From a virus (taxonomy: Duplodnaviria > Heunggongvirae > Uroviricota > Caudoviricetes), in the IMG/VR virus record IMGVR_UViG_2703718811_000010: a stretch of 5,046 bases of DNA; one strand, written 5' to 3'. Made by a program: the position numbers and the translations under genes. Below are positions 1,519 to 1,580 of the stretch, piece by piece (position 1 is the first letter of the stretch; each line of letters starts with the position of its first letter). The notes under the pieces were generated by a model. It saw only the letters and a list, made by a program, of their open reading frames with translations, ran no database searches and had not been told where the DNA came from.

Positions 1519-1580
1519 AAAAATCTCATAAATAGCGAAAACGCGCGAGGTCGCCGCCCCGTAACCTGTCGGATCGCCGG
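1519..1580. other. cos: cos site (cosN cohesive-end sequence at 1548-1559 with flanking lambda-like sequence)
   Basis: Reverse complement of 1519-1580 reads ...GATCCGACAGGTTACG GGGCGGCGACCT CGCGCGTTTTCGCTATTTATGAGATTTTT, nearly identical to the lambda genome right end and left end as I recall them (…CGACAGGTTACG / GGGCGGCGACCTCGCGGGTTTTCGCTATTTATGAAAATTTT). Confidence 0.75.

What the first reader, a model, noticed from the sequence alone, without database searches (positions are those of the whole stretch)
1519..1580. Intact-looking cos site and cosB retained although the packaging machinery is deleted
cosN and flanking sequence are nearly identical to lambda as I recall it, and the Nu1 N-terminal DNA-binding part with three putative binding repeats is preserved, while the large terminase and head genes are absent. 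An element that keeps cos but not its own terminase or capsid could in principle be packaged by a co-resident or superinfecting lambdoid helper (cos-dependent mobilisation, as in some phage-inducible chromosomal islands). Alternatively it is simply a decaying prophage.
Basis: partly seen in the sequence, partly recalled or inferred. Interest (0 to 1): 0.45.

Follow-up and report, generated by a model that had tools for sequence, protein, structure and literature searches.

The report
Intact cos in a decaying prophage
This is the DNA-packaging site of a lambda-like prophage that has lost its head and most tail genes to deletions; the site is intact by sequence, but such leftovers are common in E. 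coli and nothing shows this one is a specialised hitch-hiking element.

Summary
On the minus strand the window carries a complete cos. It has cosQ GGGTCCT (1589..1583) and the lambda 12-nt cohesive end GGGCGGCGACCT (1559..1548). It has three GGTTGTTGT repeats arranged R3>, R2<, R1> with an IHF-like site between R3 and R2. A Nu1 gene follows, cut after residue 126 and fused to tail gene I.

Only cosQ/cosN are lambda-like (58/62 identical in 1519-1580). cosB and Nu1 are the N15-specificity "Monarch-type" complex cosB that Feiss et al. described in 2015.

The 350-nt cos region is identical to that of an intact prophage (E. coli OkiPb01678). A 14.4-kb deletion at an imperfect microhomology removed the Nu1 C-terminus, terminase A, all head genes and tail genes up to I. 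A second deletion fuses J to the side tail fibre.

The same junction occurs in two draft assemblies. It occurs in none of 5,426 complete E. coli genomes.

K-12 Qin and DLP12 and strain EC21Z-078 show the same pattern of cos plus nu1 kept and heads deleted.

Verdict: an ordinary decaying prophage with a sequence-intact relic cos. Helper packaging is possible in principle, but only by N15/Monarch-specificity terminase. This phenomenon is already documented for defective prophages.

The parts
1583..1589 (-). cosQ heptamer GGGTCCT (packaging-termination signal), 23 nt upstream of the cohesive-end sequence
   Evidence: Identical to lambda 48473-48479 and to N15. Invariant in 6 of 6 Monarch-type loci. 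The pattern cosQ-N23-cosN is found in all relatives and in K-12 DLP12 and Qin.
1548..1559 (-). cosN 12-nt cohesive-end sequence GGGCGGCGACCT, with the flanking CG dinucleotides
   Evidence: Identical to the lambda left end bp 1-12. Invariant in the relatives.
1519..1760 (-). Lambda-like block: phage right end, cosQ, cosN and left-end bp 1-41. The mosaic boundary lies at 1519.
   Evidence: Matches lambda and relatives at 91-93% and ends at 1519. O55:H7 and O157:H7 prophage matches also begin at 1519.
1501..1512 (-). R3-like TerS site (left-end bp 48-59, GGTGGTTGTTGT; core GGTTGTTGT at bp 51-59)
   Evidence: N15 R3 is GAGGTTGTTGTT at bp 48-59, with its core at bp 50-58. Invariant in the relatives.
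1474..1486 (+). I1-like IHF site TATCAATTAGATA (12 of 13 matches to WATCAANNNNTTR) in an 82% A+T spacer between R3 and R2
   Evidence: It has one mismatch, and there is no perfect match anywhere in the window. This is weak evidence on its own. Its position matches the lambda and Monarch architecture.
1442..1450 (+). R2-like site, inverted relative to R3 (left-end bp 110-118)
   Evidence: The lambda R2 core is inverted at bp 114-120. Invariant in the relatives.
1364..1372 (-). R1-like site, same orientation as R3 (left-end bp 188-196)
   Evidence: Invariant in the relatives although the R2-R1 spacer varies.
909..1331 (-). Truncated small terminase gene nu1': 126 native residues (winged-HTH DNA-binding domain plus central helices) followed by 14 unrelated residues. 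The C-terminal ~42 residues (TerL-binding part) are missing.
   Evidence: Pfam Phage_Nu1 matches profile positions 4-146 of 164, against 4-163 for the intact protein. The role of the TerS C-terminus is taken from PMC4669245.
943..956 (.). Deletion junction nu1'::'I at an imperfect microhomology (AAATCCCCGTGAA against AAATCCGGGAA)
   Evidence: Three-way alignment with both parental sequences. The BLAST matches of the two halves overlap at 943-956. In strain ST866 the two halves lie 14.36 kb apart.
364..956 (-). Tail assembly gene I lacking its first ~18 codons
   Evidence: Pfam Lambda_tail_I. 99% identical to the K/I region of intact prophages.
1..126 (-). Short duplicated 5' fragment of tail-tip gene J that precedes a moron. 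The same arrangement is present in intact relatives.
1756..1917 (+). YlcI/YnfO (DUF3950) gene facing cos, as in K-12 DLP12 and Qin

Best explanation
The locus is the late region of a cryptic (decaying) lambdoid prophage. Its packaging site is still intact by sequence.

The cos is a natural mosaic. It joins a lambda-type cosQ/cosN to a 'Monarch-type' complex cosB (R3, IHF site, inverted R2, R1) that matches an N15-type Nu1 recognition helix.

An illegitimate recombination at a short imperfect microhomology deleted about 14.4 kb. This removed the Nu1 C-terminus that binds the large terminase subunit, the large terminase gene, all head genes and the tail genes through K. A second deletion fused J to the side tail fibre gene. 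The element therefore cannot make terminase, heads or tails.

The cos survives because the deletion is recent and happened to end inside nu1. There is no sign that it is maintained as a mobilisation signal.

Inferred, not shown: a co-resident or infecting phage with N15/Monarch packaging specificity could bind cosB, nick cosN and start packaging towards nu1', the tail remnants and the adjacent chromosome. Lambda or 21 could not. Without a second cos downstream, this gives stalled non-infectious particles. Real transfer would need the remnant to excise and replicate as concatemers.
For: Shown:
- Lambdoid gene order R, ant, Rz/Rz1, ylcI, cos, nu1', 'I, J' on the minus strand.
- Window 943-5046 is 99.6% identical to an intact prophage that has a full head and tail set.
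- The 350 nt from cosQ to the nu1 start are 100% identical to that prophage and to ST866. cosQ, cosN and the three R repeats are invariant in three diverged relatives whose spacers vary.
- R-site positions and orientations parallel lambda: cores at bp 51-59, 110-118 (inverted) and 188-196, against 53-59, 114-120 (inverted) and 155-161 in lambda.
- The R3 core equals the N15 R3 core. Nu1 residues 15-26 are identical to N15 gp1.
- Feiss et al. 2015 describe exactly this Monarch class.
- The junction was mapped against both parents.
- The exact chimeric Nu1' protein occurs on two NCBI draft contigs.
- L002 shows the second deletion, J fused to stf.
- The pattern is ordinary. K-12 DLP12 and Qin keep cosQ-cosN plus nohD or nohA next to deleted virion genes. 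EC21Z-078 has an independent nu1'(90 aa)::'J fusion. 4,221 of 5,426 complete E. coli genomes matched the query containing cos, nu1 and the 5' part of A. In about half of the 40 rows sampled evenly down that ranking, the best match was only the 126-nt cosQ/cosN block.
Against: - No experiment or virion-DNA data are available, so cos cleavage is inferred from sequence identity to an intact prophage, and that prophage is itself not shown to be active.
- The early half of the element (int, xis, replication genes) lies outside all available contigs. Its ability to excise or replicate, and its total size, are unknown.
- Four independent remnants (this one, Qin, DLP12, EC21Z-078) have their deletion end within about 1 kb of cos. 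This could hint at selection to keep cos or the Nu1 N-terminus.
- The junction persists in at least two or three strains that differ in a nearby 7-mer repeat number, so it is not a brand-new lesion.
Confidence: 0.8

Rival explanations
1. The element is a helper-dependent mobilisable element, a satellite-like defective prophage. It keeps cos so that a co-resident phage of the same packaging specificity packages it after it excises and replicates, as with cos-type PICIs or the complemented defective prophages of O157 Sakai.
For: - The cos is complete and identical to that of an intact relative.
- The matching nu1/cosB module, and so potential helpers, occurs in 268 of 5,426 complete E. coli genomes.
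- Sakai prophages Sp4 and Sp13, which lack head and packaging genes, are found as packaged DNA (PMC2669165).
- cos-bearing PICIs are transferred by lambda and phi80 (PMC6092414).
Against: - No PICI hallmark is visible. Phage lysis genes and tail remnants are present.
- The gene after cos is a truncated genuine Nu1, with no Rpp-like hit.
- cosB has the phage's own R repeats, unlike PICI cos sites.
- The junction is rare: two contigs in the assembly index and none in 5,426 complete genomes.
- A second deletion in J and stf shows general erosion.
- If the early region is intact, the size would be roughly 47 kb minus 18.7 kb, or about 28 kb. By my own knowledge of lambda packaging limits (about 38-51 kb), that fits neither as a monomer nor as a dimer. 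This size is an inference.
Confidence: 0.12
2. The retained cos and the truncated Nu1' are domesticated as an anti-phage device. The chromosomal cos would act as a sink that diverts the terminase of an incoming same-specificity phage into dead-end packaging. Alternatively or in addition, Nu1' would poison the phage's terminase, because it has the DNA-binding and dimerisation parts but no TerL-binding tail.
For: - Feiss et al. note that packaging started at a prophage cos yields tailless inactive particles and lowers phage yield.
- Nu1' retains the wHTH and central helices but lacks the TerL-binding C-terminus.
- At 140 aa and placed just after cos, it superficially resembles the layout of Rpp (139-154 aa).
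- Deletion end points recur close to cos in four independent remnants.
Against: - This is purely inferential.
- There is no sequence similarity to Rpp, and no match in the PDB beyond a very weak TerS hit.
- The truncation point differs in every remnant (90 aa, 126 aa, about 175 aa, full length), as expected for random deletion and not for a selected product.
- The 14 added residues are read-through junk.
- The junction is rare.
Confidence: 0.05
3. The nu1'::'I junction is an assembly artefact that joins two prophage repeats.
For: Prophage modules are repeated in E. coli genomes, and no complete genome shows the junction.
Against: - The identical chimeric ORF is present on contigs of two separate NCBI assemblies. 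The window is a third version, longer than contig L003 and differing from L002 in repeat number.
- The junction lies at a microhomology typical of real deletions.
Confidence: 0.03

Closest known systems
Monarch-group prophage cos (N15 packaging specificity with complex tripartite cosB), Feiss et al. 2015, PLoS One (PMC4669245)
   Same: Lambda-like 12-nt cohesive end and cosQ. R3 is a strong match to the N15 R3. The TerS recognition segment is identical to N15. There are three R sites with R2 inverted and an IHF-type site between R3 and R2. There is no rR2 copy inside the terS gene.
   Different: Here the terS gene is truncated and the rest of the packaging and head module is deleted. The Monarch sequence itself was not available to align, so identity with that particular prophage is not shown.
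Bacteriophage lambda cos (cosQ-cosN-cosB)
   Same: cosQ and the 12-nt overhang are identical. 58 of 62 positions are identical in 1519-1580. The architecture and spacing of R3, I1, R2 and R1 are the same.
   Different: Similarity ends at left-end bp ~41. The R sequences differ (GGTTGTTGT against CGTTTCC), and Nu1 is only 36% identical. R1 lies 33 bp further out. Lambda terminase is reported not to package N15-specificity DNA.
E. coli K-12 cryptic prophages Qin (ynfO-cos-nohA-stfQ-tfaQ) and DLP12 (ylcI-cos-nohD-aaaD'-tfaD)
   Same: The local layout is the same: lysis genes, a divergent DUF3950 gene, cosQ-N23-cosN, a Nu1 homologue, then a deletion that removes the head genes and joins to tail-fibre genes.
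   Different: The K-12 remnants have lambda-type Nu1 and cosB (NohA and NohD align with lambda Nu1). They keep a nearly full-length Nu1, and they are fixed in the K-12 lineage.
Defective prophages of E. coli O157 Sakai that are packaged by complementation (Asadulghani et al. 2009, PMC2669165)
   Same: These are lambdoid prophages lacking head-formation and DNA-packaging genes that could still use another prophage's machinery.
   Different: For Sakai, excision, replication and DNase-resistant DNA were measured. Nothing of that kind is known for this element.
Gram-negative cos-type PICIs (EcCICFT073 and relatives; Rpp redirection), PMC6092414, PMC6739421, PMC9026076
   Same: A chromosomal element with lambda-like cosQ and cosN and a ~140-aa wHTH protein gene just downstream, but no terminase large subunit or capsid genes.
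   Different: PICI cos sites have no phage-type R repeats, and the downstream gene is Rpp, not Nu1. PICIs lack phage lysis and tail genes and have their own int, alpA and pri-rep modules and att sites. This locus has a phage cosB, a genuine truncated Nu1, and lysis and tail remnants.

Membership tests
lambda-like cos site | 12-nt 5' cohesive-end sequence related to lambda, with a conserved left half and flanking CG dinucleotides | tested here: met
   GGGCGGCGACCT at 1559..1548 is identical to lambda.
lambda-like cos site | cosQ heptamer GGGTCCT about 30 bp upstream of the nick | tested here: met
   Window 1589..1583. The cosQ-N23-cosN pattern matches.
lambda-like cos site | cosB with R3 at about bp 48-60, inverted R2, R1, and an IHF site between R3 and R2, followed by a Nu1-family gene | tested here: met
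   Repeats lie at bp 51-59, 110-118 (inverted) and 188-196, with 4 observed against 0.04 expected. The IHF-like site has 12 of 13 matches only, which is weak. Pfam Phage_Nu1 is matched.
lambda-like cos site | Cleavage and packaging by a cognate terminase | not testable with these tools
   Inferred only, from 100% identity to the cos of an intact prophage.
Monarch group (N15 specificity, complex cosB) | TerS recognition helix identical to N15 TerS | tested here: met
   Residues 15-26 (GISVQAFDKWGV) are identical to N15 gp1. The exact helix limits are in a figure that is not held.
Monarch group (N15 specificity, complex cosB) | R3 is a strong match to the N15 R3 at the same distance from bp 1 | tested here: met
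   The GGTTGTTGTTTAAT block is shared. The core is at bp 51-59 here against 50-58 in N15, a 1-bp offset.
Monarch group (N15 specificity, complex cosB) | Three R sites plus an IHF site, and no rR2 copy inside terS | tested here: met
   No GGTTGTTGT in either orientation within 909-1331. There are three sites upstream of nu1.
Phage-inducible chromosomal island (Gram-negative, cos type) | Absence of phage lysis and structural genes | tested here: not met
   Lysozyme, Rz/Rz1, 'I, J' and stf/tfa remnants are present.
Phage-inducible chromosomal island (Gram-negative, cos type) | cos without phage-type R repeats, followed by an rpp gene | tested here: not met
   Phage-type R3, R2 and R1 are present. 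The downstream gene is a truncated Phage_Nu1, and there is no Rpp hit in the PDB search.
Phage-inducible chromosomal island (Gram-negative, cos type) | Own int, alpA and pri-rep module, a dedicated att site, and helper-dependent induction | not testable with these tools
   The early region lies outside the window and outside contigs L002 and L003.
Cryptic (defective) lambdoid prophage | Lambdoid gene order with inactivating deletions in essential modules | tested here: met
   A 14.4-kb deletion from nu1 to I and a J::stf fusion, relative to the ST866 and OkiPb01678 prophages.

The most novel reading that the evidence does not exclude
Retention of a sequence-intact cos, together with a Nu1 fragment that can bind cosB and dimerise but cannot recruit the large terminase subunit, is selected. 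It would act as a packaging decoy or dominant-negative defence against incoming phages of the same (N15/Monarch) packaging specificity. This would explain why several independent lambdoid remnants end their big deletion within about 1 kb of cos.
Probability: 0.06. Interest if true: 0.5.

Novelty: already known. Interest (0 to 1): 0.12.

Why it matters
It matters little beyond annotation. The locus is a clean natural example of a Monarch-type (N15-specificity) complex cosB attached to lambda-type cosQ/cosN, a class already described. It is also an example of the familiar cryptic-prophage pattern of cos plus nu1 kept and heads deleted. The practical point concerns experiments on mobilisation of such remnants. 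They must use a helper of matching cosB specificity, not lambda. A single chromosomal cos is expected to give dead-end packaging, not transduction, unless the remnant can still excise and replicate.

Tried and rejected
- An exact 44-nt junction search in one genome per species (GTDB representatives) found nothing. The source was instead reached through the exact chimeric protein.
- No isolated phage in the phage collection carries this cosB/nu1 module. Only N15 and an Enterobacter phage match the nu1 5' part, and the PhiR12 phages match the 3' part, at 75-77%. So no experimentally active phage with the identical cos could be used as reference.
- The strict IHF consensus gives no match in the window. 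With one mismatch there are 9 sites against 6 expected, so the I1 assignment rests on position and not on statistics.
- A permissive Rfam scan of the whole window returned only a sub-threshold chance hit to a eukaryotic IRES, so no known RNA family explains the 0.9-kb non-coding stretch.
- A PDB sequence search with Nu1' gave no Rpp-like match and only E=0.66 to lambda TerS in 6hn7.
- The long query containing cos, nu1 and the 5' part of A was meant to estimate how many Monarch-type cos loci lack terminase. It was swamped by the near-ubiquitous lambda-type cosQ/cosN block and by A-gene homology, so no clean fraction could be derived.
- Several loci were not exported to the scripting machine, so their sequences were pasted in by hand.
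- An assembly artefact was considered and rejected.

Full report
**What is in the window**

Read on the minus strand, the window is the late region of a lambdoid prophage. In order it carries:
- lysozyme R (5023..4490);
- a P22-AR/Bro-type antirepressor-like gene (4216..3647);
- a small ORF (3650..3498);
- Rz/Rz1 (3490..3023 and 3270..3085);
- about 0.9 kb of A+T-rich non-coding DNA;
- a divergently oriented YlcI/YnfO (DUF3950) gene (1756-1917, plus strand);
- cos;
- a Nu1-family gene starting at 1331;
- most of tail gene I (956..364);
- a short 5' fragment of J (126..1).

**Check of the observation**

The reverse complement of 1519-1580 matches the lambda cos junction at 58 of 62 positions. 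The 12-nt cohesive end GGGCGGCGACCT (1559..1548) is identical to lambda's. 29 of the 30 bases before the nick are identical.

The cosQ heptamer GGGTCCT lies just outside the reported coordinates, at 1589..1583. Its 23-nt spacing to the overhang is the same as in lambda.

BLAST against 50,697 phage records aligns window 1760..1519 to lambda and relatives at 91-93%. The similarity stops at 1519, which is left-end bp ~41. O55:H7 and O157:H7 prophage matches also begin at 1519, so this is a mosaic boundary.

The three differences from lambda inside the left end (bp 17, 35, 37) are shared by all five relatives aligned. They are natural variants and not decay.

**cosB and Nu1 are not lambda-type**

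GGTTGTTGT occurs at left-end bp 51-59 (same sense), 110-118 (inverted) and 188-196 (same sense). In the whole window there are 4 copies against 0.04 expected, and 0 of 200 shuffles reached 4.

This mirrors the lambda cores (CGTTTCC at 53-59, 114-120 inverted, 155-161) in position and orientation.

An IHF-like sequence, TATCAATTAGATA (12 of 13), sits in the 82% A+T spacer between the first two repeats. On statistics alone it is weak.

The N15 left end carries the same GGTTGTTGTTTAAT block at bp 50-63. The published N15 R3 is bp 48-59, GAGGTTGTTGTT (PMC4669245).

The Nu1 here is 49% identical to N15 gp1 overall and identical over residues 15-26, the HTH recognition segment. It is only 36% identical to lambda Nu1, NohA and NohD.

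Feiss et al. (2015) describe exactly this class, the 'Monarch' group of prophages. It has the N15 recognition helix and R3, a complex lambda-like cosB (R3-I1-R2-R1), and no rR2 copy inside terS. All these features are met here.

**Is the cos intact?**

From upstream of cosQ to the nu1 start (350 nt), the window is 100% identical to the prophage of E. coli OkiPb01678 and to that of ST866. The OkiPb01678 prophage has a full complement of terminase, head and tail genes.

In three more diverged relatives, cosQ, cosN and all three repeats are invariant. Substitutions fall in the spacers and upstream of cosQ.

By sequence the cos is therefore intact. Function is inferred, not shown.

**The deletion**

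Window 943-5046 matches the OkiPb01678 prophage at 99.6%, and position 943 falls inside its 168-aa terS gene. Window 1-956 matches the K/I/J region of prophages at 99%.

A three-way alignment places the junction at an imperfect microhomology, AAATCCCCGTGAA against AAATCCGGGAA.

In strain ST866 both halves belong to one prophage and lie 14.36 kb apart. That interval contains the Nu1 C-terminus, A, W, B, C, D, E, FI, FII, Z, U, V, G, T, H, M, L, K and the first ~18 codons of I.

The resulting Nu1' has 126 native residues plus 14 unrelated ones. It lacks the C-terminal ~42 residues. In lambda-like TerS proteins the C-terminus holds the TerL-binding domain (PMC4669245).

**Is the junction real, and how common is it?**

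The exact chimeric protein is encoded on two NCBI draft contigs, from GCA_025824165.1 and GCA_020319715.1. The window is a third version. It is longer than one contig and differs from the other in the copy number of a 7-mer repeat.

The junction is absent from 5,426 complete E. coli genomes and from one-genome-per-species representatives. It is real but rare.

**More decay outside the window**

The 11-kb contig L002 shows that J is cut after about 122 residues and fused to the collagen-like part of the side tail fibre gene. A tail-fibre-assembly-like gene, a YkgJ-family gene, a tRNA-Thr and an unrelated FRG/DEAD-helicase island follow. Only about 4.4 kb of prophage DNA remains on the nu1 side of cos.

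**How ordinary is this?**

- K-12 DLP12 (ylcI-cos-nohD-aaaD'-tfaD) and Qin (ynfO-cos-nohA-stfQ-tfaQ) have the same layout and still carry cosQ-N23-cosN.
- Strain EC21Z-078 has an independent fusion, nu1'(90 aa)::'J, with the Monarch-type module.
- 4,221 of 5,426 complete genomes matched a query containing cos, nu1 and the 5' part of A. In about half of the 40 rows sampled evenly down that ranking, the best match was only the 126-nt cosQ/cosN block.
- The Monarch-type nu1/cosB module occurs in 268 of 5,426 genomes.

**Mechanism**

Shown: the element cannot make terminase, heads or a tail.

Inferred: a phage with N15/Monarch packaging specificity could assemble on cosB and nick cosN. Packaging starts from the cosB-bearing end. 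It would run through nu1', 'I and J'::stf into the thrW-side chromosome, not through the lysis genes. Feiss et al. point out that such initiation at a prophage cos, with no downstream cos, stalls and gives tailless inactive particles.

True transfer would need excision and concatemeric replication, as in cos-type PICIs or the complemented defective prophages of O157 Sakai. The genes needed for that lie outside every contig available, so this cannot be judged.

Lambda and 21 terminases do not package N15-specificity DNA.

If the early region were intact, the element would be about 28 kb (roughly 47 kb minus 18.7 kb). By my own knowledge of lambda packaging limits (about 38-51 kb), that fits neither as a monomer nor as a dimer. 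This size is an estimate, not a measurement.

**Comparison with PICIs**

PICI cos sites have lambda-like cosQ and cosN but no phage R repeats. They are followed by rpp, and the islands lack lysis and structural genes. Here the R repeats are the phage's own. The downstream gene is a truncated genuine Nu1 with no Rpp-like similarity. Lysis and tail remnants are present. Two defining PICI features were therefore tested and not met. The int/alpA/rep module could not be tested.

**Verdict**

The cos type, the remnant architecture and the possibility of complementation by co-resident prophages are all already described. Interest is low.

The only non-trivial loose end is that four independent remnants end their deletion within about 1 kb of cos. 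That could be chance, selection on neighbouring morons, or, with low probability, selection for a cos/Nu1-N decoy.

Noticed in passing
window 1901-1942: Tandem 7-mer (TGACAAC/G) repeat at the 3' end of the YlcI/YnfO ORF. It has 6 copies in the window, L003 and ST866, 8 in L002 and 5 in OkiPb01678, so it is a small VNTR. The ORF stops within the first repeats in any register, so the protein is probably unaffected.
   Followed up: partly
window ~1950-2850: About 0.9 kb of A+T-rich (37% G+C) DNA between ylcI and Rz, with no annotated gene in the relatives. It has two strong terminator-like hairpins on the plus strand (2153-2176 plus a T-run; CTGCCG...CGGCAG plus T8 at ~2791-2822), facing against late transcription. 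There is no Rfam match. It could encode prophage small RNAs.
   Followed up: partly
window 1783-1791: A fourth GGTTGTTGT copy lies about 230 bp upstream of the nick, inside the YlcI/YnfO coding sequence (the RTTTR codons). The same sequence is present in the lambda right end, so it is probably coincidental and not a TerS site.
   Followed up: partly
window 1-363 and L002 5044-6200: Between tail genes I and J there is an inserted moron. It consists of a terminator-like hairpin, a duplicated 49-codon 5' fragment of J, and a 168-aa ORF with no Pfam or PHROG family. The same insertion is present in intact prophages (ST866, OkiPb01678).
   Followed up: partly
window 3647-4216: A P22_AR_N/ORF11CD3 antirepressor-like gene and a 50-aa ORF (phrog_4906) are inserted between the lysozyme gene and Rz, inside the lysis cassette.
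   Followed up: no
L015 (E. coli EC21Z-078, NZ_CP101257) 9190-11471: An independent remnant with the same Monarch-type cos. Its nu1 is cut after ~90 codons and fused to the middle of J. With Qin and DLP12, that makes four remnants whose large deletion ends within about 1 kb of cos.
   Followed up: partly
L008/L014 (E. coli ST866, NZ_CP077646): The otherwise complete sister prophage at potB has its terS annotated as a partial pseudogene and J as frameshifted. It may be starting to decay as well, or these may be sequencing errors.
   Followed up: no
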